Assembly: GCA_963844965.1 (NCBI GenBank) | Contig: CAWJQC010000004.1 | Coordinates: 64,001-128,000 of the forward strand | Direction: 5' to 3' | Origin: an uncultured bacterium | Lineage (GTDB): Bacteria; Patescibacteriota; Minisyncoccia; UBA6257; 2-01-FULL-56-20 | Length of the DNA stretch: 64,000 nt | Shown here: piece after piece, positions 8,979 through 21,758 of the stretch | How positions within the stretch are numbered: the first letter of the stretch is position 1 | Layout of the letters: the number at the start of each line of letters is the position of its first letter | Translations under genes and position numbers: made by a program | Notes under the pieces: model-generated | What the model was told of the DNA's origin: nothing | Databases searched by the model: none | Seen by the model: only the letters and a program-made list of their open reading frames with translations

Positions 8979-9619
8979 GATTTGTAACGTTTACCCATAA
9001 TTTCAACGGCTTTTCTGTCCATGAAAATATTCTTATAGTTCAAAATGTCGTAGAGATTCAGCGACTCCGGAGGAACAGTTTTTGTCTTGACCAAATTCCG
9101 CGAGGCGCGCGCCAAATTTTTGTTTTCTTTGTTCGCGACAAGAAGTAGATCAAATTTTTTATCCTTCTTTTTCAAGTTCAAAACCGGCGCGAGCGCCGCG
9201 GCAAGAACCTTGGTTTTCGGCCGCTCCACGTTCAAATCTTCAAAAATCCTCACGTCATTGTCTTTGAGTTTGCGCGAGAGCGCGCTCACGAGAGCCAGAC
9301 GCTTCATTTTCTTGTTTATCTTCTGCGAATAATCGCGCAACTTGGAAGGTCCGTGCGCCTTGCCGCCGCCAACCCACAACGGCGAGCGGATAGAGCCATG
9401 CCTCGCGCGCCCCGTTCCCTTCTGCCGCCACGGCTTTCTGCCGCCGCCTCGGACTTCGGCGCGGGTCTTTGCGTGCGCCCACGGGCGTCTGGCGTTCGCA
9501 AGCTGGGCAACCAAAACCTGTTGCACAAGCTCCGGATTCCACTTCACGCCAAAAATCTTGTCGGGTAGTTCAATCTCGCCGACCACCTCGTTTTTTAAAT
9601 TATAAACCGCGGCTTTCAT
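8975..9619 (-). CDS. rplD: 50S ribosomal protein L4
   Basis: 214 aa; RRPWAHAKTRAEVRGGGRKPWRQKGTGRARHGSIRSPLWVGGG, L4. Confidence 0.9.
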   Translation of the reverse strand: MKAAVYNLKNEVVGEIELPDKIFGVKWNPELVQQVLVAQLANARRPWAHAKTRAEVRGGGRKPWRQKGTGRARHGSIRSPLWVGGGKAHGPSKLRDYSQKINKKMKRLALVSALSRKLKDNDVRIFEDLNVERPKTKVLAAALAPVLNLKKKDKKFDLLLVANKENKNLARASRNLVKTKTVPPESLNLYDILNYKNIFMDRKAVEIMGKRYKS

Positions 9620-9620
9620 T

Positions 9621-10172
9621 CTATTTTCTATTTTCTATTTTCTGTACTTCCAAAATCCCTCCCCTCGCTCCGGGAACCGCTCCCTTTATAAAAAGCAATC
9701 CGTTCTCTTTATCAACGCCGGCGACCTTCAAATTTTTTACCGTCACGCGCTCGTCGCCCATGTGGCCGGCCATGCGGTGGCCCGGCGTAACCCGCTGGGG
9801 CGCGGTGCTGCCGATGGAACCGCCGGCGCGGAAACGGTTTTTCTGTCCGTGTGTTTTCGGTCCGCCGGCGAAACCATGGCGCTTGACGACACCAGCAAAG
9901 CCACGTCCCTTCATCGTGCCCGACACGCGCACCACATCACCTTCCTTGAAAGCATCAACCTCTATTGCGTCACCAACTTTAAATTTCTCGCTTTCGGTTC
10001 TGAATTCCCGCTTTTGCTTTCCGAGAGCGAGCTGAACGGCTTCATATCCGTCCCGTTCGTTAGTGCGAACAAAAGTTACCTTATTCGGCTGCGCGCGAAG
10101 CACCGTCACGGGCACGACGGTTTTGTCCTTCCAAATCTGGGTCATCTTCAATTTTTTCGCCAGGATAAACAT
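9621..10172 (-). CDS. rplC: 50S ribosomal protein L3
   Basis: 183 aa; GTMKGRGFAGVVKRHGFAGGPKTHGQKNRFRAGGSIG, L3. Confidence 0.9.
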   Translation of the reverse strand: MFILAKKLKMTQIWKDKTVVPVTVLRAQPNKVTFVRTNERDGYEAVQLALGKQKREFRTESEKFKVGDAIEVDAFKEGDVVRVSGTMKGRGFAGVVKRHGFAGGPKTHGQKNRFRAGGSIGSTAPQRVTPGHRMAGHMGDERVTVKNLKVAGVDKENGLLFIKGAVPGARGGILEVQKIENRK

Positions 10173-10407
10173 AACTTAATAAAAATCCGCCCAAGCACAC
10201 CCGGGCGGTCCGGCTGTCCTTGTGAAAACGTTCTTAATTATTGTCCAGAACGTCCATTAAAGAGACAAGCTAATACTACGCCGGAATGCCTGGAACGTCA
10301 ATAGCACCCCCTCCACAAGCAAAATCGGCCTGATTTTGCCGCCTTGCCTTCTAAAATGTCGGTAAAATAAAAAGCCGGGCCGTTAGAACTTCAGCCCGGC
10401 AACTTGC

Positions 10408-11511
10408 TCACCGAAGAATGAAACGTCCCGGTTTGCTTGAGTAATCAGAGAAGAAATTCGCATACGGGAAACGCAGAACACCATAGCCGTGCGTCACGCT
10501 TTTTGAGACGAACGCGGGCCTTTCTCGTTTCCATCGCTCATACTCTTCTTCCTTGAACAGCACGACGCGTAGCGGATTGCGCGATTCATCAATAACGGCA
10601 GGAAGAGCAAACTCCCAAAACGCCATGTCGTCCTGTTCGTCGCGCGTGAAGAGCGAACGAACGTCGGCGATATCGCCTTCGGCCCAGAACGCGAATCCGC
10701 CGCAGGAAGTCAAATATATTCTCTCCAACTCTTTCGGCCGAATACCCTCCAACTTCAACAAATCAAATCTGTTACAAACAGCCAAAGGCTTTAACCGAGA
10801 ATAGTAAAAAAGTTGTCGCGCTTCCTTTCTTACACATTTGGCAAATATGTCCTCGATGTAGGCGGCGAGGAACGGGAGCTCGTGACTAATGTCGGCATCA
10901 AAACAGTTGACCGAATGTTCAACCGGCAGGGCGTATTTCCAAATGCTCGGAATCGTTTCTTGGAGAATGGCAAGTGTGTCCGGCACCGACCCGCCGATAG
11001 TACTGAGAGAATTGAGGCCGGGAACCGTTTCGCCGTGTATGAAGTGCCGGTGGCAAACCGACACATACCGGAGATATATACCCATGCCGTCGCTGTGCAT
11101 GAATTCCAGAAGACGCAGGGTTTTTTCCGGCGCGAACATAACGAGCACGCATTTCTTCGTTTTCTCAATCGGCACCGTTTCGCCGGGCAGTACGTGCCCT
11201 TTATCCCCGAGCGCGCGGAGAAGTTCTTCGGCGGCTTCATCGCAACCGTCACGCCGGAGCTGGGCATAAAAATCGGCGAGAACGCGCGCATCGCTGAAAA
11301 GTCCGTTAAGTTCGTTCAAAAACGCGGTTGGGGTGTCGGCTTTATCGGCGATATTTGCCAACGTTTCCGTCATAAATCCGAGTTTGCCGCGCCTTCGCCC
11401 AAACACTTTATGGCCGGCGAGTTTCTGAAATAACCGGTCAAATTGCTGTCCACGAAGAACCGTCTTTCCTTCAGGCACCTGTTTCATGGGAACCTCCTTG
11501 TTCCGAAACAC
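10408..11511 (-). CDS. Hypothetical protein (367 aa), no recognisable family
   Basis: Long ORF with many overlapping spurious ORFs on both strands. It sits inside the ribosomal superoperon between rplC and rpsJ. Confidence 0.5.
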   Translation of the reverse strand: MFRNKEVPMKQVPEGKTVLRGQQFDRLFQKLAGHKVFGRRRGKLGFMTETLANIADKADTPTAFLNELNGLFSDARVLADFYAQLRRDGCDEAAEELLRALGDKGHVLPGETVPIEKTKKCVLVMFAPEKTLRLLEFMHSDGMGIYLRYVSVCHRHFIHGETVPGLNSLSTIGGSVPDTLAILQETIPSIWKYALPVEHSVNCFDADISHELPFLAAYIEDIFAKCVRKEARQLFYYSRLKPLAVCNRFDLLKLEGIRPKELERIYLTSCGGFAFWAEGDIADVRSLFTRDEQDDMAFWEFALPAVIDESRNPLRVVLFKEEEYERWKRERPAFVSKSVTHGYGVLRFPYANFFSDYSSKPGRFILR

Positions 11512-11690
11512 ATCTGAAGCAACACTTCCTGGGAAATGCCTATTCGTCTGCCTTTCAGCAGACCGTCTCCTGGGAAACGTGGATTAGCGCATTTTCAAAG
11601 AACATGCACCGAACAAATCATAAGCAATGCGGACTTCTAAGTCAAGCGCATCGTAGATGCGGCCGACACCGAAAATCTTCCGTTCCCAAT

Positions 11691-12608
11691 TTACTGTGCC
11701 ACCATAAGCGTCCTCCTTATTGAGTCAAACTGATTAAGCAATGCCGTGCGGTCAAATTCATGGACAACGCCAGGCGGATAGTTATAAATATCCGTGGAGT
11801 GTATGAGATAGCGCACCGCGAGGCAGGGATTTGTGCCGGGAACGGCCCAGACTTGTTCTTCGTAAAAATTGCCCGCCGCCCCTTCGGTCGTCGTAGCAAC
11901 GGAATACTCCGCGCCGCCGTCGGTCACATTCTCTGCGACCAGATTTTGCCGGTCAAGAAAAGGAAGCGCGCTGCAATCCTTTATGTTCGGAGTTTCTTCA
12001 ACCGACACGCCCGTGTCGTAGTGTGAAAGATTGGTACCGGTCGCCATCGCGGCGGGAATAACAAATTTGACGCCGCTGATATCCTTGCCCGGGCCGAGTT
12101 CCTGATACTTATACGAAGCGTCAACGGAGTAGCCCACGGGATAACGTATGGAAAAACCCGCCGTTCCGCTTGCGTAAGTTTGCGGCAAACCGCCCGAGTC
12201 TGGCGCAAGCACAATACAGCCAACGTAATTTTTCTCTTCGTTATTCTCAAAAACGAGCGCGCCGTTGCCCTTGCCCCAGAAAACGAACGACTCGTCACTG
12301 TTGGCGTAACGTATTCCGTCCGCCGATATTGTTTGCGGCAAAGTGAATCTGCGCCCGTCGCTTAAAACCAAGGCAACGCTCCCACCGGGAACCGGCGGCT
12401 CGCCGGGCTTTACGGGCGGCGGAGTTCCCTTGTAAAAACTTGCGTCAATCGTCTTTCCGCCATTGCACAGATAGGTAACTTCATTGATAGGCGCGGGCGC
12501 CGCGGACTTTTCCGGCGCGCCGCGGCGGGCGTACCAAAACCACACGCCAAAAAACACCAAGATGACCGCGAGCACCGCAAACAATATTTTAATATTCCTA
12601 AATTCCAT
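11691..12608 (-). CDS. Membrane-anchored secreted protein with MliC-like (lysozyme-inhibitor-type) domain
   Basis: Likely start MEFRNIKILFAVLAVILVFFGVWFW (signal anchor). Segment YLCNGGKTIDASFYKG...VALVLSDGRRFTLPQTISADGIRYANSDESFVFWGKGNGALV resembles MliC/DUF306 beta-barrel domains. Confidence 0.45.
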   Translation of the reverse strand: MEFRNIKILFAVLAVILVFFGVWFWYARRGAPEKSAAPAPINEVTYLCNGGKTIDASFYKGTPPPVKPGEPPVPGGSVALVLSDGRRFTLPQTISADGIRYANSDESFVFWGKGNGALVFENNEEKNYVGCIVLAPDSGGLPQTYASGTAGFSIRYPVGYSVDASYKYQELGPGKDISGVKFVIPAAMATGTNLSHYDTGVSVEETPNIKDCSALPFLDRQNLVAENVTDGGAEYSVATTTEGAAGNFYEEQVWAVPGTNPCLAVRYLIHSTDIYNYPPGVVHEFDRTALLNQFDSIRRTLMVAQ

Positions 12609-12706
12609 GATTTTAGTTTTTAGAAACGCCCGATCCGATAAGCACAGGTGGCACTCTGTGGAGATAGCGAGAGGCACCAGTTGCAACTTCGCCAAACCAA
12701 CCGCCG

Positions 12707-13018
12707 TCAGCTGTAAGCCAAAATGATAAACACAATCGCGACGATTACGACGAGGAACGTAATGGTTGCCGCAACAAGATTTATCGCTTCCCTTTTTTTG
12801 CCGTTAAAGTACCAAAGAATCGGCCGGCCGAAGATAACAATGCCCATTACAGCCGCGGAAATCACAAAAACAAGAAGAAACGCCGAGACGACCAGCACCC
12901 CGCCCCCGGGACCGAAAACGTGGTTCGCGTTTGAAATCAAAAGAGCGACGAGCCCCACGTAGGCCGCGGCGGCAAGCGCGTTAAGCAAGCCGTAGCCGAT
13001 TATTCGTTTTGTTTTCAT
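12707..13018 (-). CDS. Small integral membrane protein (3 TM), function unknown
   Basis: 103 aa, highly hydrophobic. Confidence 0.5.
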   Translation of the reverse strand: MKTKRIIGYGLLNALAAAAYVGLVALLISNANHVFGPGGGVLVVSAFLLVFVISAAVMGIVIFGRPILWYFNGKKREAINLVAATITFLVVIVAIVFIILAYS

Positions 13019-13030
13019 TGTATAGAAATA

Positions 13031-14422
13031 TTACTGCTGGCATGCCTGGCCCGTCAGCCACGGTCCACTCGTGGCGTTGGGATCGTATGGCACGAGCGGC
13101 ACTACGCACGACCAGGAAAGGCCAGTGGATTTGAGCACGATTTTGCTATCGCTTCGGTCCGTTATTACGCTACGCAGTCCGATGGTAATTGTCGGGTCAA
13201 CGCCGGAAATGCCCATGCGGTGCACCCCCAATATTTCAATCGGGAGCATTCTCTGGGTGGTTGGTCCTAATGGGAAGGAAAACGGAACGTTAATGTTCTC
13301 TCCGCTGTGCGTGAAGGGAATAGATGGGTCAGCCGCCAGATTTTCCAGGTGATAATCGGTTGACGGATCATCAGCTACGCGCAAAACCAGCGGCGAATCG
13401 GCGACATTCAAAGCCGTGTAAGAAATATCAACGTTTAGTCCGGTAATCGTAATCTGGTTGGAATCTATATTGTTGAAAACAAGACCACCATTGTCCGTAC
13501 TTTCCTGAAGCACGGTGCTCATGGCCGACGGCGAAGTGACGATCAGTTGGCCGGGGTCGGTCGTAAAGGAAAAATTTTTGGACTGAACCCGCTGGTCGTT
13601 TCCGGAAGTCTGAGCCAAACCGATGGCACAAGCGTATGAAGTTCTCACATCGAACATCGGATTTTGGTCGGTATCGTCGGAAGACGGGATATTCGGCGGC
13701 GGATTGCAGGAGAACGAAACGAAAAAACGCGGCACCGAACCGCTGCCGCCGATGGAAGTTTCGTCCAAACCCCATATTACACTGCTTTTTGTGCCTGCGA
13801 ACGTGGTAAATTTTGCTTCGTATGGGCCGTCAAACCGTTCGTTCAAAGAAAGCGTGGTGGCGTCCAAAAACGTCCGCGCCGTAATTACCGCCGGGACGGA
13901 AGCGGCGGCTGTTGTCGGGGTCGTAGCGGATTTTGCCTGCGCTCCGGCCTTTTTACTTGTAGTTTTCCCACCGGACTGGGTGGTCGCGGCGGCCGTCGTG
14001 GCGGTCGTTGTGGAAAACGGCACATCCACGCTTGGCAATAGTCCCGCCACAATCTCCGTCTGTGCATCCAAACTCGCGACGCTTGAGGTGGCAACGCTTG
14101 AAGTAGCCGTGGAAGTTGAGAACGCAATAACACTTTGCATCATGGCAATCTCTTTCGGGACGCCTACTGCCATGCCCAGGCGTGCCTGCATGCCCATAAC
14201 TTCAATCGTCTGTTTATAGGAAACAATTTCCGTCAAAGTTTTCGCCGCGAAAACTCCTCCGAAGAGGATTGCCGCGAGCCCGACAAGAAAAGGAACTCTC
14301 GTGCTGAACAACTTCAAGATTTTTCCGGAGATATTTCCGCCGCCCAAAAAAATGGCCTTGAAGCCGCCGGGTCTGGCGGGCTTTTCACGGCGCACAATAT
14401 CTTGTACGCGCCTGTTATTCAT
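13031..14422 (-). CDS. Membrane-anchored extracellular protein with Ser/Thr-rich linker
   Basis: 463 aa; N-terminal TM (VPFLVGLAAILFGGVFAA), long low-complexity T/S/A linker, then a C-terminal globular domain. Confidence 0.5.
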   Translation of the reverse strand: MNNRRVQDIVRREKPARPGGFKAIFLGGGNISGKILKLFSTRVPFLVGLAAILFGGVFAAKTLTEIVSYKQTIEVMGMQARLGMAVGVPKEIAMMQSVIAFSTSTATSSVATSSVASLDAQTEIVAGLLPSVDVPFSTTTATTAAATTQSGGKTTSKKAGAQAKSATTPTTAAASVPAVITARTFLDATTLSLNERFDGPYEAKFTTFAGTKSSVIWGLDETSIGGSGSVPRFFVSFSCNPPPNIPSSDDTDQNPMFDVRTSYACAIGLAQTSGNDQRVQSKNFSFTTDPGQLIVTSPSAMSTVLQESTDNGGLVFNNIDSNQITITGLNVDISYTALNVADSPLVLRVADDPSTDYHLENLAADPSIPFTHSGENINVPFSFPLGPTTQRMLPIEILGVHRMGISGVDPTITIGLRSVITDRSDSKIVLKSTGLSWSCVVPLVPYDPNATSGPWLTGQACQQ

Positions 14423-14649
14423 TTGACGTATTGTTATATATTACCTCAGGACGCGTGGGGATTCAAACGTAGGCAAAATCGCAGTTTTGTTGCGGCAGGG
14501 CAAATCACCCGGAGCGCTGAAGGATTAAAAAACAAAGCCGCAACCACGACTGTTCACTTTTTATGAACAATCATTTTATCGCTTGTTAAAAATTGAAACT
14601 GCCGACCGTGGATACAAAAATCTTTCAAAAGCCCGAAAAGAAAACACCC

Positions 14650-14700
14650 CGAAAACGAATTGGCTTTCGGGGCGACTTGTTAGAAAAAAACAGGAGTCAG
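14650..14700 (-). terminator. Rho-independent terminator (CCCCGAAA...TTTCGGGG followed by a T-rich run on the minus strand)
   Basis: Perfect 8-bp stem plus T-tract immediately downstream of the minus-strand ORF ending at 14718. Confidence 0.5.
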
Positions 14701-14717
14701 GATTCTATTCTCTGGTT

Positions 14718-15162
14718 TCAATTGAGGCCCGTTGCGGCAAGAAGTGTGCGGCGAATCACCGAATCGTGTCCCATCTCATTGTATGTGGCCGCCTCTATAC
14801 GCCTCTCCAAAACAGCAGGAAGCCCAAGTATTTCTTTCTTGACCTCCCGTTCGGCAGAGCTCGCCACACCTTCCGTAATCATCGCGTATACCGCAGTCAA
14901 CGGATAGTAGTCATTTTCCGCGGTGATGATGACACCGAGCGGCGTCAGCTTCCATCGGTGGGGTCTTTGCGCAGATACTCAAGAATACGCTGTAGTCGTA
15001 GATATCGCGCCCCAACAGTGCGCCGAAGAACAGCAACAAAACACCCTGAATTCCTACGACCACGTGATGACCTTGTATTTGATCTTTTGAAAAAAGAGCG
15101 AAAGCGGTGCATATTCCACCAAACACCAGCAGCACGACAAGCGATGGCTTAGCGCCCTTCAT
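14718..15162 (-). CDS. Hypothetical membrane protein, probably frameshifted (two ORF-track pieces 14911..15162 and 14718..14900)
   Basis: Two adjacent same-strand ORFs: a TM-rich N-terminal piece and a soluble C-terminal piece. Merging them is speculative. Confidence 0.25.
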
Positions 15163-15434
15163 ATACCCCCCCTTCCTCTTTTTTATCTTTGGCCTATCCA
15201 GCTGGCCTCAACCTAACACAGCGAAAGTTATTAGTCAAATGCGGCGGCTTTTTATAACTTGCGCGCTGATCACGGCAAAAATCTGCCGCCGGCCGGGAAT
15301 GCGGGGGTTTAAACGAGGTCCAGCTGGTCCTCGGCCACAGGGTTTTAGAAAACCAATTCAAAACTGCCCTTTCCTGCGCTTCGCCGAAGGCTTCGGCAAG
15401 GCGAGCGGGCGGTGGTGAAAAAAATTACCTAGTT

Positions 15435-15782
15435 CTATTTGCCGTCGGCGCTGCTGGCCGGAAACTCGGAAGACGCGTCTCCGTCGTTCATCCATTGCCA
15501 AATTTCGGCTCGGCGCTTTTCGGCGCCGGGAAACACGTCATCGGGTATGGCAATACGCCGCAATTCTTCTTCGGTCAAGCTGCTGAGGTTAACCGACGAG
15601 GGGTCTTTGCCTAAAAGAGATTTGAGCGTTTTAAGGCTCGCTTTTATCCGTTTCGGGGCGAGAGCGTCCTTATTCCACAACTCTGAATCTTTTCTAATTG
15701 CGTCCAAATTTTCGTGCGCCAGGGCGATCCTGTCGTTCCTGGAGAGTTCGTTCCCGCCAATCTTATCTGCAGGTTCTGGCAT
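15435..15782 (-). CDS. Hypothetical protein (115 aa)
   Basis: ORF only. Confidence 0.4.
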   Translation of the reverse strand: MPEPADKIGGNELSRNDRIALAHENLDAIRKDSELWNKDALAPKRIKASLKTLKSLLGKDPSSVNLSSLTEEELRRIAIPDDVFPGAEKRRAEIWQWMNDGDASSEFPASSADGK

Positions 15783-15896
15783 AAATTTATATTACAACAA
15801 TTTAATTTCTAAGTCCAAGCCCTGAATTAACAGAGAAATTCAAAACCGCCTTTTCGGGCGGCTTTGTTTCTGCGTAATTCCGCGTAGTTCCGCGCT

Positions 15897-16226
15897 TAGA
15901 CCATTTTGATTTCCACATCTACGCCAGCCGGTAAATTCAGATTGCTCAGCGATTCCACGATTTTCTGACTGGGATTCAGTATTTCCACGAGGCGCTTGTG
16001 GACGCGGAGCTCAAACTGCTCGCGCGAGTCCTTGTGGACGAATGTTGAACGATTTACGGTGTAGCGCTTAATCTCGGTCGGCAGCGGAATCGGCCCTACG
16101 ATGCGCGCGTCCTGCCTCTCGGCGGCTTCAATAATTTGCCGCGCCGAATTATCAATCAGCTTGTGATCTGTATGACTTGATTCTCAGCCTGATTTTTTGC
16201 GGAAGGTCCGCTACTTTTTTGGCCAT
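15897..16226 (-). CDS. rpsJ: 30S ribosomal protein S10, interrupted by a 1-nt frameshift near 16165-16172
   Basis: Not in the ORF track. Minus-strand reading gives [19 protein letters not shown], then a frame change, then [90 protein letters not shown]. Textbook S10. Confidence 0.85.
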
Positions 16227-16537
16227 TATTTTTTCCTATTGAGGGAATTCATCCGGATGTTCGTCCTCGTATTTTTCAAGAAGTCCGTTGTACAGATTTA
16301 TATCCCTTTCGAGTTTGGAGCAGGATTCAAGCTCCCAGTGCCCGATATCCCCTTGACGGGACGCCGCTGGCTCGCCACTTCCGCAAATTGGCTCTCTAAT
16401 CGCTTAACCAGGGCTTTCAGTTTTTCGTAGTCCTCGTGATTTTGAGGCGGATTTTTCAACCAGCTCCTGTTGTCAAAGTTAGTTTCTTTTTCCTCACCAA
16501 GCTAATTTTGGATTCACTGCGATTTTTTTCACCCATA

Positions 16538-17740
16538 TTATTTCAGTATCTTAGTCACCGCTCCTGCGCCGACCGTCTTGCCGCCTTCGCGGATGGCAAA
16601 ACGCTGTTTTTCTTCAAGCGCGACCGGGAAATGAGTTTCACGGTGAGTTTAACGGTGTCGCCCGGCATGACCATTTCCATGCCTGCCGGCAAGGGTCACT
16701 TCGCCCGTAACATCGGTCGTCCTGATATAGAACTGCGGCTTGTAGCCGTTGAAGAACGGCGAGTGGCGGCCGCCTTCCTCTTTTGAAAGCACGTAAACCT
16801 CGCGCTCGAATTCCGTGTGCGGCGTGACGCTGCCCGGCTTCGCGACAACCTGCCCGCGCTCCACGTCTTCTTTCTTCAGGCCGCGGAGCAGAACGCCGAC
16901 GTTGTCGCCCGCCATGCCTTCGTCCAAGAGTCTTATTGAACATTTCAATGCCCGTGACGACGGTCTTCTGCCGTCGGCCTGCAGGCCGACGATCTCCACT
17001 TCTTCGTTCACTTTCACCTTGCCGCGCTCCACGCGGCCGGTCACGACCGTGCCGCGTCCTTCAATCGAGAAGATGTCTTCGATCGGCATAAGGAACGGCT
17101 TGTCGAAGTCGCGGACCGGATCGGGAATGAATGTCATCCACCGCTTTGATAAGGTCCAAGATCGGTTTCGCGTCCGGGTCGTCGGCGATTTCGCGGCCAA
17201 CGCTTTCAAAGCCGAACCGCGGATGATCGGAGTCGTGTCGCCCGGGAATTCGTATTTCTTCAAAAGCTCGCGGACTTCGGACTCAACGAGATCAATGAGT
17301 TCCGGATCGTCCACCTGATCGCACTTATTAAGAAACACGACGATGGTCGGCACGCCGACCTGGCGGGCAAGCAAAATGTGCTCGCGCGTCTGCGGCATCG
17401 GGCCGTCGGTCGCGGCGACGACCAAAATCGCGCCGTCCATCTGCGCGGCGCCCGTGATCATGTTCTTGATATAGTCGGCGTGTCCCGGCGCGTCAATGTG
17501 CGCGTAGTGGCGCTTCTCGGATTCGTACTCCGAATGGTGCAGGGCGATCGTGATGCCGCGCGCCTTTTCCTCCGGAGCGTTGTCAATTTGGTCCACTCTC
17601 TCTTCTTTCTTCGTCAGACCCTTCAAATGCAAAACGTGCATAATCGCGGCGGTCAGGGTCGTCTTGCCGTGGTCAACGTGGCCGATCGTGCCGATGTTCA
17701 TGTGCGGCTTGGCCCGGTAGAATTTTTCTTTTTCAGCCAT
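16538..17740 (-). CDS. tuf: Elongation factor Tu, carrying about four single-base frameshifts
   Basis: N-terminus [26 protein letters not shown] all intact. The stretch [23 protein letters not shown] reads in another frame as [23 protein letters not shown]. The C-terminus ...[23 protein letters not shown] / [29 protein letters not shown] is recovered in alternate frames. Confidence 0.85.
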
Positions 17741-18049
17741 GGTTTTATTATTTTATTTTTATTTATTTTTTTAGTGAGAACCTGGCCTGATGGATATCGC
17801 GTATGAAAAGCCCCAAACCAATCGACCGGGGCCGCGAACACATCATCGGACCTTATAATGCTAGATTATATACCATTCCCCCAACTGCTGTCAATTGCCA
17901 TTGTGGAATGATTGTGGACGGCGAAAGGGGGCAGGATTTGGACAAATCATAGATAGATAGCATGAATTAATTTATTACTTATTAACGGATTAACGAATTG
18001 CGAATTGAATCCGATGCGTTAATACGTTAATTCGTTAATTTTAATAGAA

Positions 18050-18095
18050 TAAAAAACCCGCCGACGCTTACACCTAACGCGCGGCGGGCTCGTTC
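18050..18095 (-). terminator. Rho-independent terminator downstream of the 18101..18904 gene
   Basis: Minus-strand CCCGCCGCGCG-loop-CGGCGGG followed by TTTTTT. Confidence 0.6.
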
Positions 18096-18100
18096 AAGAC

Positions 18101-18904
18101 TCATTTCCCTAGAGCGGAAAACGCCTCGTTGCCGGGATACTTTCTATGAAGGTAATCGTGGATATTAGCTTTGTCATCTGCGGTATATTGGCAGGCGTTT
18201 TTCTTGTCCGTGATTATCTTCAAAATCACGAACCAAACGTCGTCGGCGTACATACCGCCGTCCAGAGCCACCGATTCGAATATTAATTCCCGGCCGCGAT
18301 AGTCGTTGTTCGGAATGCCGAACAGTGTTGTCACCACGGGATGCGACGACGCCCTATAGTTCGTAAGGCCGAGAAGGAATTTCGCGCCACGGTACTTTGA
18401 GGCGGAAGCGACGGCAACGGCGGACTGCAAGGTGTTTTTTGCCGCCCACCACGAGCCGCAGCCATACAACAGAACTGCCTTGGTATATAGAAGATTCGCC
18501 TCTACATACTGATAAAAATCAATCTGCTTGCCGTTTCCTATTTTCTTATCAGCCTTGTTGATGCCCACATCAAGCAGCTTGAAAAAATCCGCGCGCGGGC
18601 CGTCCTCCAATTTAGGCGCGTCCTTTTTTTGTTCGTGCCGAAGCCGGAAAAGCCAGCTCAAAGATAGCCGCAGTTCACCGACGGGATCGTCCGGCTCCAT
18701 TTCCGCGTATTTTCTGAACTTGGCGTCGGCGCAGTTATAATCGCTGTTGTAAAAACAATTCAGGCCCGCCTCAAGCACAGCACGGCTCTCGGGCCTCATC
18801 TCACGGTCCGAGATAGAATCCGCAGAAAAAACCGGGGCAGCCGAACCCGAGAAGAGACACACCGACATAAAAAAGATGAGCATCCTCGTTCTCTTCGCGC
18901 CCAT
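18101..18904 (-). CDS. Secreted hypothetical protein (signal peptide MLIFFMSVCLFSGSAAPVFSA)
   Basis: 267 aa ORF with a Sec-type signal. Confidence 0.5.
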   Translation of the reverse strand: MGAKRTRMLIFFMSVCLFSGSAAPVFSADSISDREMRPESRAVLEAGLNCFYNSDYNCADAKFRKYAEMEPDDPVGELRLSLSWLFRLRHEQKKDAPKLEDGPRADFFKLLDVGINKADKKIGNGKQIDFYQYVEANLLYTKAVLLYGCGSWWAAKNTLQSAVAVASASKYRGAKFLLGLTNYRASSHPVVTTLFGIPNNDYRGRELIFESVALDGGMYADDVWFVILKIITDKKNACQYTADDKANIHDYLHRKYPGNEAFSALGK

Positions 18905-19044
18905 TTTTCTCCTTTCAACGGCAAAATTTCAACGCAAGCCCATCAGCTACGAAGCATTATACGGAAATACTTCATAAAAGTCAAACAAATTGCCAAATTG
19001 CCCCGAGGGCGCAAGAGAACGCGACCAGGATCTCCGGCAAAAAA

Positions 19045-21371: not shown

Positions 21372-21758
21372 TTATTTATCTTCTTCAACTTCCGGCAAAC
21401 CTGTTCCGCCTCTCACCCCTTGGCCGCCGCTCTCCACGTAAGACATGGTGACATCGAATGCGTTCCGGAGATAAGGAATTTTGGCGGGACTGCTGTTGCC
21501 TTCCTCTATCTCCGACCAGCTAATTTTGCCTTTTTCCAAAAGAGCGCTCAGAACTTCTATTTTTGATTTGGTGCCGAAATCCAAAACCGTTTCCGGTGGT
21601 GCATAAGCGATGTTTTTACCCTGCCGAAGCGCTTCCAATTCGTGGCGTTTCGCTCGTTCCTTATATTCTTCCAATTTTAATCGCAATTGCTTTACGCGCC
21701 GTCCGTCAGTAGGCAAAACTATCTCTAAACCACTTTTTTCGGCTTCCGGACCTTTCAT
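21372..21758 (-). CDS. Hypothetical protein (128 aa) between rpsG and fusA
   Basis: ORF only; charged and helical. Confidence 0.4.
   Translation of the reverse strand: MKGPEAEKSGLEIVLPTDGRRVKQLRLKLEEYKERAKRHELEALRQGKNIAYAPPETVLDFGTKSKIEVLSALLEKGKISWSEIEEGNSSPAKIPYLRNAFDVTMSYVESGGQGVRGGTGLPEVEEDK

What the first reader, a model, noticed from the sequence alone, without database searches (positions are those of the whole stretch)
10173..15896. The S10 operon is split: about 5.7 kb of secreted and membrane-protein genes sit between rpsJ and rplC
In nearly all bacteria rpsJ immediately precedes rplC. Here tuf-rpsJ ends at 15897 and rplC starts at 10172. In between lie a 367-aa orphan, an MliC-domain lipoprotein-like gene, a small membrane protein, a Thr/Ser-rich anchored protein and two further small ORFs, with their own terminators at about 14650-14700 and about 15840-15870. 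This is either an ancient lineage-specific rearrangement or an insertion of accessory DNA into the most conserved gene cluster of the genome.
Basis: partly seen in the sequence, partly recalled or inferred. Interest (0 to 1): 0.5.

Follow-up and report, generated by a model that had tools for sequence, protein, structure and literature searches.

The report
Gene-filled gap at ribosomal operon boundary
In this tiny-genome (Patescibacteria) bacterium, ribosomal genes rpsJ and rplC are 5.7 kb apart because they are predicted to be separate transcription units, with rplC behind its own promoter and an undescribed structured leader RNA, and native envelope genes fill the gap.

Summary
rpsJ (16226-15896, minus strand) and rplC (10172-9621) are separated by 5,723 bp. 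The gap holds five credible co-directional genes and one or two doubtful small ORFs.

It is not foreign DNA. Composition and codon usage are native, there are no mobility genes, repeats or tRNA, and nothing matches phages or plasmids. The proteins belong to Patescibacteria families, and the "367-aa orphan" has 247 distant relatives.

The rpsJ|rplC break is shared by the clade. In 42 close relatives the median gap is 1,158 nt, against 4 nt for rplC-rplD, and its content differs almost everywhere. Only o463-o103 is shared with the closest relative.

What stays fixed is a sigma-70-like promoter plus a ~90-nt leader RNA with a terminator, directly upstream of rplC (window 10301-10179). It occurs in 23 loci with strong covariation and is absent from Rfam.

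My reading: rpsJ ends the str-like unit, as in cyanobacteria and archaea. rplC heads a separately promoted, probably attenuator-controlled operon. The space between the two turns over freely. The leader's regulatory function and ligand (L4?) are inferred, not shown.

The parts
15896..16226 (-). rpsJ (ribosomal protein S10), last gene of the rpsL-rpsG-fusA-tuf-rpsJ unit. It carries a 1-nt insertion (frameshift) near 16169 in this assembly.
   Evidence: (Pfam S10, 1e-34 after joining the two frames).
15841..15866 (-). Intrinsic-terminator-like hairpin 30 nt after the rpsJ stop. It is the predicted end of the tuf-rpsJ transcript.
   Evidence: 10 pairs, 6 GC; MFE -30.6 kcal/mol, z=-4.0, 0/200 shuffles as good. 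Its T-tail is weak (AATTTCTCTG).
15435..15782 (-). o115: a 115-aa soluble protein with no family match. Its codon usage is coding-like.
   Evidence: log-likelihood -1.103 against -1.085 for reference genes and -1.307 off-frame. No homologue in 173 related loci.
14718..15162 (-). Doubtful small membrane gene: o83 (14911-15162, two TM) plus a 60-aa ORF (14718-14900). They may be one gene split by an assembly indel.
   Evidence: log-likelihood -1.214, intermediate between coding and off-frame.
14645..14674 (-). Strong terminator-like hairpin (12 pairs) followed by TTTTCTTTTC. It closes the o115/o83 sub-unit.
13031..14422 (-). o463: a membrane-anchored surface protein. It has an N-terminal TM, a Ser/Thr-rich stalk, and a conserved ~270-aa C-terminal double beta-sandwich with 4 invariant Cys.
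   Evidence: 22-sequence alignment of the 31 homologues found, 41-60% id; pLDDT 80-94 for residues 180-440; only generic Ig/MG-like hits. A homologue lies upstream of rplC in L082.
12707..13018 (-). o103: a small membrane protein with several hydrophobic TM-like segments (hydropathy scan). It is paired with o463.
   Evidence: Homologues lie upstream of rplC in L082 (70% id) and L094 (66% id).
11691..12608 (-). o305: an 'MliC family protein' with a signal-anchor helix, an MliC domain and an unknown C-terminal domain. The listed ORF extends to 12695 from a TTG start.
   Evidence: PF09864, 1e-9. (>1,180 homologues at 55-69% id in Paceibacteria; P0033 is the 305-aa form). Relatives carry it in unrelated contexts.
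10408..11487 (-). o367/o359: a cytoplasmic protein of an uncharacterised Patescibacteria family. A promoter-like site lies at 11645-11617.
10364..10400 (-). Terminator hairpin (GCCGGGCUG...CGGCCCGGC) plus UUUUUAUUUU, just after the o367 stop.
   Evidence: (z=-2.9).
10273..10301 (-). Sigma-70-type promoter of the rplC operon: TTGACG, 17 nt, TAGTAT. The -10 element ends 4 nt before the leader.
   Evidence: the same promoter is in the same register in 23/23 loci that carry the leader.
10179..10268 (-). Conserved structured leader RNA of the rplC operon. It comprises P1 (GUC-CUU/AAG-GAC), the variable hairpin P2, the conserved box UUUCACAAGGAYAG, the GC-rich terminator hairpin P3 (10208-10187) and a U-run. 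It ends 6 nt before the rplC ATG.
   Evidence: There are 25 hits in 2.26 Mb, all just upstream of rplC on the rplC strand. In the 23-sequence alignment 94.2% of cells pair, 12 pairs change on both sides, and 0/500 shuffles reach the observed values. No Rfam family matches.
9621..10172 (-). [quoted passage not shown]

Best explanation
In this Paceibacteria lineage, rpsJ and rplC do not belong to one operon. rpsJ is the last gene of a str-like unit (rpsL-rpsG-fusA-tuf-rpsJ) that ends at a hairpin terminator. rplC heads a separate unit with its own sigma-70-type promoter. That promoter is followed by a ~90-nt structured leader whose third helix is an intrinsic terminator placed 6 nt before the start codon. 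This is the layout of a transcription attenuator, most likely sensed by a ribosomal protein of the operon (L4 by analogy). Because nothing has to be co-transcribed across the rpsJ|rplC boundary, the DNA between the rpsJ terminator and the rplC promoter is free to gain and lose genes, and it does so throughout the clade. In the window's lineage it was filled in layers with the organism's own genes. The older pair o463-o103 (surface protein plus small membrane protein) is shared with the nearest relatives. The MliC-family gene and o367 were later placed between o103 and the rplC promoter. o115 and o83 lie on the rpsJ side. These genes form two or three small co-directional units with their own terminators. 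Shown here: the gap, native composition, clade-wide variability, promoter and leader conservation, and covariation. Inferred: the order of the layers, attenuation as the mode of control, and the identity of the ligand.
For: Gap variability: among 42 loci with rplC identity >=62%, the rpsJ-to-rplC gap has a median of 1,158 nt. Only 1 locus is <=150 nt and 15 exceed 1.5 kb. Six more loci have >=3 kb of upstream sequence with no rpsJ at all. More distant relatives have medians of 206-239 nt.

Control junctions in the same set: rplC-to-rplD has a median of 4 nt and a maximum of 175 nt (n=75).

Gap content in relatives is heterogeneous: Ddl, methyltransferases, HisG, an ABC transporter, LiaF, PemK, reverse transcriptases and membrane proteins. 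Of 79 gap ORFs, 51 are singletons and 59 are co-directional with the operon.

The leader stays 6-194 nt from the rplC ATG. The rpsJ-to-leader distance runs from 7 nt (L008) to 5,627 nt (window) to more than 7.6 kb (L108).

The promoter TTGACA-17-TAnnAT sits at a fixed register in 23/23 leader loci. In L008 its -35 element lies inside the rpsJ coding end.

Leader covariation: 94.2% of cells pair, 52 cells carry changes on both sides, 0/500 shuffles reach this, and the score is 0.416 against at most 0.123 for slid controls.

Native composition: tetranucleotide distance is 0.0116, with 85/117 equal-size windows more deviant. GC is 0.515 against 0.504. Codon log-likelihoods are -1.07 to -1.16, against -1.085+/-0.064 for reference genes.

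Shared layer: L082 has o463-like, then o103-like, then rplC. L094 has o103-like, three other genes, then rplC.

Precedents: the S10 gene sits with tuf, and an 'rplCD operon leader' exists, in cyanobacteria (PMC1242208, PMC12873609). An L4 leader candidate lies upstream of rplC in Archaeoglobi (PMC7247131).
Against: No transcript data exist. Promoters and terminators are consensus or fold predictions, and the rpsJ terminator has a poor T-tract, so read-through from tuf-rpsJ into the gap is possible.

The proposed antiterminator (CAAGG pairing with CCUUG of the P3 3' arm) is compatible in 88% of cells. Both sides are nearly invariant, so there is no covariation proof.

The closest relative, L082, carries a different and longer leader type, so the leader history is not simple.

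Patescibacteria have low synteny in general. I did not measure whether this boundary turns over faster than other operon boundaries.

The rpsJ-side junction of the window is not confirmed by a second assembly.
Confidence: 0.75

Rival explanations
1. The 5.7 kb block is a horizontally acquired accessory or mobile island that integrated into the S10 cluster recently.
For: The gene content at this position is unique to the window among 173 related loci. Several of the genes are of unknown function. Some relatives do carry mobile-type genes in the same gap: an rve-like gene in L003 (my reading of its sequence, not checked per protein), reverse transcriptases in L051/L106, and PemK toxins.
Against: Tetranucleotide composition, GC and codon usage are native. 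There is no integrase, transposase, flanking direct or inverted repeats, or tRNA. There are no PHROG or PADLOC hits and no blastn match to 50,697 phage or 72,556 plasmid records. o305, o463, o103 and o367 all belong to families found in other Patescibacteria. The block is layered rather than a single unit.
Confidence: 0.06
2. The gap is an assembly artefact: a chimeric join or misplaced contig piece in a noisy long-read metagenome assembly.
For: The assembly has indel errors in rpsJ, tuf, fusA and rplP. It differs by one indel from the Logan contig. The rpsJ-o115-o83-o463 part has no independent assembly.
Against: A separately assembled contig from run ERR10755942 reproduces o305(3')-o367-leader-rplC-rplD at 99.97% identity. 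L082 and L094 show the same o463/o103 genes upstream of rplC. Composition is uniform. Large gaps at this junction are the rule in relatives from many different assemblies.
Confidence: 0.05
3. The gap genes are placed there by selection. By sitting downstream of the very strongly transcribed tuf-rpsJ unit, in the same orientation, envelope proteins receive growth-rate-coupled read-through expression. The locus would then be a functional extension of the str unit rather than neutral filler.
For: All credible gap genes in the window are co-directional with the operon, and 59 of 79 gap ORFs in relatives are too. The rpsJ terminator has a weak T-tail. Similar secreted or membrane genes sit between fusA and tuf (o267; homologues at the same place in L016 and L099).
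Against: The content is not conserved (51/79 singletons) and includes unrelated housekeeping enzymes, toxins and retroelements. Predicted internal terminators and promoters divide the gap into separate units. Co-orientation may simply reflect co-orientation with replication, which I did not test.
Confidence: 0.14

Closest known systems
Cyanobacterial and plastid organisation: rps10 at the end of the str operon (rps12-rps7-fus-tufA-rps10), with a separate rplC-led operon carrying its own leader
   Same: rpsJ follows tuf. rplC heads the next unit. A conserved structured 5' leader precedes rplC (PMC1242208 Table 1, 'rplCD operon leader', citing Sanangelantoni & Tiboni 1993; PMC12873609).
   Different: Here the two units remain neighbours, in the same orientation, in most relatives. 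The leader sequence and structure are different (no Rfam hit). The interval between the units is a variable gene-filled region. I could not compare directly with the cyanobacterial leader sequences.
E. coli S10 operon with the L4-responsive S10 leader (transcription attenuation plus translational control)
   Same: [quoted passage not shown] There is a leader with a terminator hairpin just upstream of the first cistron, the layout of an attenuator (PMC3616713).
   Different: In E. coli the leader and promoter precede rpsJ, and rpsJ is co-transcribed with rplC. Here they precede rplC, and rpsJ is outside the unit. There is no sequence or structure match. The E. coli leader is restricted to Gammaproteobacteria (PMC3616713). 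The ligand here is untested.
L4-Archaeoglobi ribosomal leader candidate (Eckert & Weinberg 2020)
   Same: It is a candidate r-protein leader located upstream of rplC, rplD, rplW, rplB..., with L4 as the presumed ligand (PMC7247131 Table 1).
   Different: It belongs to a different domain of life and is a different motif. Rfam 15 gave no hit in the window even at E<=1.
Genomic islands and integration hot spots next to conserved genes
   Same: A fixed pair of conserved flanks (rpsJ and the rplC promoter/leader) encloses content that differs between relatives.
   Different: There is no integrase, att repeats, tRNA or deviant composition. The content is largely ordinary chromosomal genes of the same phylum.

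Membership tests
Classical bacterial S10 operon (E. coli type) | rpsJ immediately upstream of, and co-transcribed with, rplC | tested here: not met
   The gap is 5,723 bp with predicted terminators at 15866-15841, 14674-14645 and 10400-10374, and a promoter at 10301-10273.
Classical bacterial S10 operon (E. coli type) | [quoted passage not shown] | tested here: met
   ORF list and Pfam hits. rplC-to-rplD spacing in relatives has a median of 4 nt.
Classical bacterial S10 operon (E. coli type) | Regulatory leader upstream of rpsJ | tested here: not met
   No Rfam family matches in 9000-19000 at E<=1. The conserved leader lies upstream of rplC instead. The 330-nt tuf-rpsJ spacer was not analysed for new motifs.
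str-operon-attached rpsJ with an rplC-led operon (cyanobacterial/archaeal type) | rpsJ directly follows tuf in the same orientation | tested here: met
   tuf is at 17740-16555 and rpsJ at 16226-15896, a 328-nt spacer. In relatives the tuf-to-rpsJ spacing has a median of about 56 nt.
str-operon-attached rpsJ with an rplC-led operon (cyanobacterial/archaeal type) | Independent promoter and leader in front of rplC | tested here: met
   This is a sequence-level prediction only. The promoter is at a fixed register in 23/23 loci, and the leader shows covariation. No transcript data exist.
Ribosomal-protein leader (autoregulatory r-leader RNA) | Conserved secondary structure in the 5' UTR of an r-protein operon, supported by covariation | tested here: met
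   Covariance model R1 gives 25 hits, all upstream of rplC. Twelve pairs change on both sides and 0/500 shuffles reach the observed values.
Ribosomal-protein leader (autoregulatory r-leader RNA) | Binding of an r-protein encoded in the operon, and repression on binding | not testable with these tools
   This needs binding and reporter assays. L4 is proposed only by analogy (PMC3616713, PMC7247131).
Ribosomal-protein leader (autoregulatory r-leader RNA) | Expression platform: a conditional terminator with a competing antiterminator | tested here: inconclusive
   The terminator P3 plus U-run is conserved and covaries. The alternative CAAGG:CCUUG pairing is possible in 88% of cells but is invariant.
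Mobile genomic island / prophage / integrative element | Integrase, transposase or recombinase gene; flanking repeats; tRNA target; deviant composition | tested here: not met
MliC (membrane-bound lysozyme inhibitor of C-type lysozyme) family, for o305 | MliC domain above the Pfam gathering score | tested here: met
   PF09864 at E=1e-9, 38.6 bits against a cutoff of 22. Sources name the homologues 'MliC family protein'.
MliC (membrane-bound lysozyme inhibitor of C-type lysozyme) family, for o305 | Lipoprotein signal with a lipobox Cys; equivalence to E. coli MliC; lysozyme inhibition | tested here: not met
   The N-terminus MEFRNIKILFAVLAVILVFFGVWFWYARRG has no Cys. The NCBIfam equivalog PRK11372 scores 21.9 bits against a cutoff of 168. 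The extra ~170-aa C-terminal domain is unassigned. Activity was not testable.

The most novel reading that the evidence does not exclude
The ~90-nt element at 10268-10179 is a previously undescribed ribosomal-protein-sensing transcription attenuator that defines the true start of the 'S10' operon at rplC in a large Paceibacteria clade. A second, longer leader type would serve the same role in sister lineages. The rpsJ|rplC boundary it creates would act as a clade-wide safe harbour where genes are gained and lost at high rate, a natural neutral landing pad inside the most conserved gene neighbourhood of bacteria.
Probability: 0.5. Interest if true: 0.55.

Novelty: new variant of a known kind. 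Interest (0 to 1): 0.45.

Why it matters
Ribosomal-protein gene order is used as a near-universal marker, for example in phylogenomics, in binning and completeness checks, and in scaffolding CPR genomes. This result shows that in a large Paceibacteria clade the rpsJ-rplC link is routinely broken by 0.2 to more than 7 kb of unrelated genes, and that this is biological rather than misassembly.

It also yields a concrete, testable cis-regulatory RNA with strong covariation and a fixed promoter, in front of rplC. Almost nothing is known about gene regulation in this phylum. The leader gives a handle on how these minimal cells balance ribosome synthesis. The variable interval marks a place that tolerates insertions.

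The gap proteins (an Ig-like surface protein family, an MliC-domain family, and a ~350-aa family with a confident model but no structural relative) are candidates for cell-surface biology of episymbionts. Their functions remain unknown.

Tried and rejected
1. Exact-sequence look-up of the 367-aa ORF found nothing. The word-indexed homologue search found only the protein itself, which looked like an ORFan. The exhaustive HMMER search overturned this with 247 relatives.

2. Rfam at E<=1 on 9000-19000 gave only a chance hit inside tuf (BTH_s1; 21 bits against a gathering score of 74).

3. The repeat search found no flanking direct or inverted repeats of note. One pair, 15355-15378 and 15837-15860 (83% over 24 nt), resembles the rpsJ terminator tail but is within chance expectation for 10-nt seeds in 7.5 kb.

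4. The genome and metagenome scans with rplC found no relative above 73% identity. The closest relative, L082 at 81%, came only through the o463 homologue, and its contig ends before rpsJ.

5. RNAalifold on a plain MAFFT alignment of 10 upstream regions predicted no pairs. A shorter, length-matched seed was needed.

6. Fold searches for o463 gave only generic beta-sandwich matches with low TM scores. Those for o367 gave nothing significant. No function was assigned.

7. Profile-against-PDB sequence search and Pfam scans of the o367 family were empty. Contexts of its homologues share no partner gene.

8. The antiterminator model was tested, but no covariation is available to support it.

9. Two paper-reading runs failed on terms that were too short.

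Full report
**1. What is in the sequence**

The ribosomal super-cluster lies on the minus strand. Its order is rpsL (22848-22438), rpsG (22354-21887), an unknown 128-aa ORF, fusA (21149-19045), a 267-aa ORF with an N-terminal hydrophobic, signal-peptide-like segment (o267, 18904-18101) and tuf (17740-16555). [quoted passage not shown]

rpsJ is recognisable only after two reading frames are joined at about 16169. It then matches Pfam Ribosomal_S10 at 1e-34. tuf, fusA and rplP carry similar single-base indels. An independently assembled Logan contig differs from the window by one indel in rplW. I therefore read these breaks as consensus errors of a noisy assembly, not as pseudogenes.

**2. The genes in the gap**

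All credible genes are co-directional with the operon.

- **o115 (15782-15435).** It is soluble, matches no family, and has coding-like codon usage.
- **o83 plus a 60-aa ORF (15162-14718).** The coding statistics are weak, and the two may be one gene broken by an indel.
- **o463 (14422-13031).** It has one N-terminal TM helix and a Ser/Thr-rich stalk. Its conserved C-terminal ~270 residues carry four invariant cysteines and are modelled with high confidence as two beta-sandwich domains. The structural matches are only generic Ig/MG-like ones.
- **o103 (13018-12707).** It is a small membrane protein with several hydrophobic, TM-like segments.
- **o305 (12608-11691).** It has a signal-anchor helix, an MliC domain and an unassigned C-terminal domain. 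It belongs to a family of more than 1,180 Paceibacteria proteins at 55-69% identity. It has no lipobox cysteine, so it is not lipoprotein-like.
- **o367/o359 (11487-10408).** It is cytoplasmic. The word-indexed search found only itself, but the exhaustive HMMER search found 247 relatives. Most are 330-390 aa, with 23-46% identity over the matched stretches. They include hypothetical proteins of Kuenenbacteria and Magasanikbacteria. The family has no Pfam or PDB sequence match. A confident AlphaFold model (pLDDT 83, pTM 0.80) has no significant structural relative. So the "orphan" label is wrong, but the function remains unknown.

Terminator-like hairpins follow rpsJ (15866-15841, z=-4.0), the o83 region (14674-14645) and o367 (10400-10374 plus a U-run).

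**3. Foreign or native?**

The evidence favours native DNA.

- The tetranucleotide distance of the gap to the rest of the window is 0.0116, and 85 of 117 equal-size windows are more deviant. GC is 0.515 against 0.504.
- Synonymous-codon log-likelihoods of o367, o305, o103, o463 and o115 are -1.07 to -1.16. These lie within, or just over one SD below, the reference-gene distribution (-1.085 +/- 0.064) and far from off-frame values (-1.307 +/- 0.055).
- There is no tRNA within 7.9 kb of the gap and there are no flanking repeats.
- There is no integrase or transposase, and no PHROG, PADLOC or NCBIfam mobility hit.
- There is no blastn match to the phage or plasmid collections.
- The four larger proteins all belong to families of the same phylum.

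**4. Synteny in relatives**

rplC relatives were fetched from one genome per GTDB species and from JGI metagenomes. With the loci fetched around homologues of the gap proteins, this gave 173 loci. None exceeds 73% rplC identity in those scans. The closest relative (L082, 81%) came from the o463 homologue search.

Among loci with rplC identity >=62% that carry both genes (n=42), the rpsJ-to-rplC gap has a median of 1,158 nt. One locus is <=150 nt and 15 exceed 1.5 kb, up to 5.2 kb. Six further loci have >=3 kb of upstream sequence with no rpsJ. In more distant relatives the median is 206-239 nt.

Control junctions in the same set behave differently. rplC-to-rplD has a median of 4 nt and a maximum of 175 nt (n=75). 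tuf-to-rpsJ has a median of 56 nt, with 8 of 36 above 300 nt. fusA-to-tuf ranges from 109 to 4,059 nt.

The gap content differs almost everywhere. Of 79 gap ORFs of >=100 aa, 51 are singletons and 59 are co-directional. Pfam finds D-Ala-D-Ala ligases, methyltransferases, HisG, queuosine salvage, an ABC transporter, LiaF-like proteins, PemK toxins and reverse transcriptases.

None of the window's gap proteins occurs in those gaps, with two exceptions:

- L082 has an o463-like gene (56-60% identity), then an o103-like gene (70%), then rplC.
- L094 has an o103-like gene (66%), then three unrelated genes, then rplC.

Other o463, o305 and o367 homologues sit in unrelated neighbourhoods. The window's arrangement therefore looks layered. 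The o463-o103 pair is older, and o305 plus o367 were inserted later between o103 and rplC.

**5. What stays constant: a promoter and a leader in front of rplC**

Directly upstream of rplC the window has TTGACG-17-TAGTAT (10301-10273). A ~90-nt element follows at 10268-10179. It folds into P1, P2 and a GC-rich hairpin P3 (10208-10187) followed by a U-run, and it ends 6 nt before the ATG.

The same element was recognisable by eye and by pattern search in many relatives. A covariance model built from 8 sequences found 25 hits in 2.26 Mb searched on both strands. Every hit is on the rplC strand and just upstream of rplC, and there is none elsewhere in the 64-kb window.

On the 23-sequence model alignment:

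- 94.2% of cells pair.
- 12 of 21 pairs show changes on both sides, in 52 cells.
- No shuffle out of 500 reaches any observed measure.
- Sliding the partners drops the covariation score from 0.416 to at most 0.123.

Rfam 15 has no matching family.

The leader stays 6-194 nt from the rplC start. The distance from the rpsJ stop to the leader runs from 7 nt (L008) through 5,627 nt (window) to more than 7.6 kb (L108). So all the length variation lies between rpsJ and the leader.

A sigma-70-type promoter (9-11 of 12 consensus positions, spacer 17-18) sits in the same register, with the -10 element ending 4-8 nt before the leader, in 23 of 23 loci. In L008 its -35 hexamer lies inside the last codons of rpsJ.

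Relatives without this leader, including L082, carry a second and longer conserved leader type. It too sits behind a TTGACA/TATAAT promoter and contains a CUCCGG...CCGGAG terminator.

**6. Mechanism**

Shown at the sequence level: rplC heads its own promoter-leader unit across the clade, and rpsJ belongs with tuf.

Inferred: the leader works as a transcription attenuator. A terminator placed between a promoter and the first start codon is the classical layout. The conserved box CACAAGGA can pair either with the 5' strand of P1 or with the CCUUG of the P3 3' arm. The two conserved G·U pairs in P3 fit such a dual constraint. Both partners are nearly invariant, however, so covariation cannot confirm the antiterminator.

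The ligand is most likely a protein of the operon. L4 is the precedent in E. coli and in the Archaeoglobi candidate (PMC3616713, PMC7247131).

Because no transcript has to cross the rpsJ|rplC boundary, insertions there are tolerated. That would explain the gene turnover.

**7. Comparison with what is known**

The layout matches the cyanobacterial, plastid and archaeal one. There the S10 gene follows tuf at the end of the str operon, and rplC starts the next operon with its own leader (PMC1242208 citing Sanangelantoni & Tiboni 1993; PMC12873609). That archaea share this layout is from my own knowledge.

It fails the defining feature of the E. coli-type S10 operon, which is rpsJ co-transcribed with rplC behind a leader upstream of rpsJ.

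My literature searches found no description of this arrangement, or of an rplC leader, in Patescibacteria. The library does not cover all journals.

**8. Verdict**

The split itself is a new variant of a known organisation. The most useful by-product is a well-supported, apparently undescribed leader RNA with a fixed promoter upstream of rplC.

Limits:

- There are no expression data.
- The rpsJ-side junction is not independently assembled.
- The functions of the gap proteins are unknown.
- No genome closer than 81% rplC identity was available.

Noticed in passing
window ~16169 (rpsJ), ~16690 (tuf), ~19515 (fusA), ~6100 (rplP); window 8865 versus L081: Single-base indels break four of the most conserved genes. 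The fusA case looks like GGGG>GGG, and the rpsJ and tuf cases look like single inserted bases. The Logan contig differs from the window by one indel that breaks rplW there instead. I read these as consensus errors of a noisy (long-read or mixed-strain) assembly, not pseudogenes. They cluster in genes that recruit reads from related strains.
   Followed up: partly
window 18101-18904 (-), between fusA and tuf: A 267-aa protein with an N-terminal hydrophobic, signal-peptide-like segment, no Pfam match and native codon usage interrupts fusA-tuf. Weak homologues (23-25% id) lie at the same place just upstream of tuf in L016 and L099. The fusA-to-tuf spacing ranges from 109 to 4,059 nt among relatives, so this junction is leaky too.
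   Followed up: partly
window 21372-21758 (-), between rpsG and fusA: A 128-aa ORF with no family match sits in a 737-nt rpsG-fusA spacer. This junction is 50-250 nt in most relatives.
   Followed up: no
window 16227-16554 (-), tuf-rpsJ spacer: The spacer is 328 nt, against a median of about 56 nt in relatives. Its 53-aa ORF (16298-16459) has non-coding-like codon usage. I did not search it for RNA motifs beyond Rfam.
   Followed up: no
L082:2439-2594, L094:3598-3753, L003:9836-10000, L105, L016, L124, L110, L097, L024, L027, L154, L099, L123: A second, longer (~120-190 nt) leader type lies upstream of rplC in relatives that lack the window-type leader. It has the promoter TTGACA-16/18-TATAMT, a nearly invariant 5' box CAAGGTTTCCTCGGAAGTTTTATGCCAATAT, hairpins GGAAGACG...CGTTTTC and CCCGC...GCGGG, and a CUCCGG...CCGGAG terminator plus U-run. 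I aligned it but did not model it or test it for covariation.
   Followed up: partly
L005, L009, L010, L013, L014, L017-L019, L103, L111, L112, L114, L118-L120: last ~70 nt before the rplC ATG: A third conserved element, CTGGATTYCC-[hairpin with AUUCAAAG loop]-GGRACGATCAAGAAA, directly abuts the rplC start codon, downstream of the type-2 terminator. A related ...CATTATTCAAAGCRATG occurs in L012, L026, L099, L100, L117 and L123. It may be a translational control module.
   Followed up: no
L008:2510-2580: Here rpsJ and the leader are only 7 nt apart, and the -35 hexamer TTGACA of the rplC promoter lies inside the rpsJ codons for ...GVDIEI.... Even the compact arrangement keeps an independent promoter.
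   Followed up: partly
L082:6816-7220: In the closest relative a dCMP/cytidine-deaminase-family gene sits between rpsC and rplP, inside the S10-type cluster. The window has no gene there.
   Followed up: no
L051:6932-8353 and L106:3910-4986 (rpsJ-rplC gaps): In two relatives the gap holds a reverse transcriptase gene (Pfam RVT_1). In L051 it lies next to a small ORF that looks like a four-helix-bundle protein (my reading, not checked). This suggests a retron- or DGR-like retroelement. The L003 gap has a gene that looks rve-integrase-like by eye, which I also did not check.
   Followed up: no
[not shown]
   Followed up: partly
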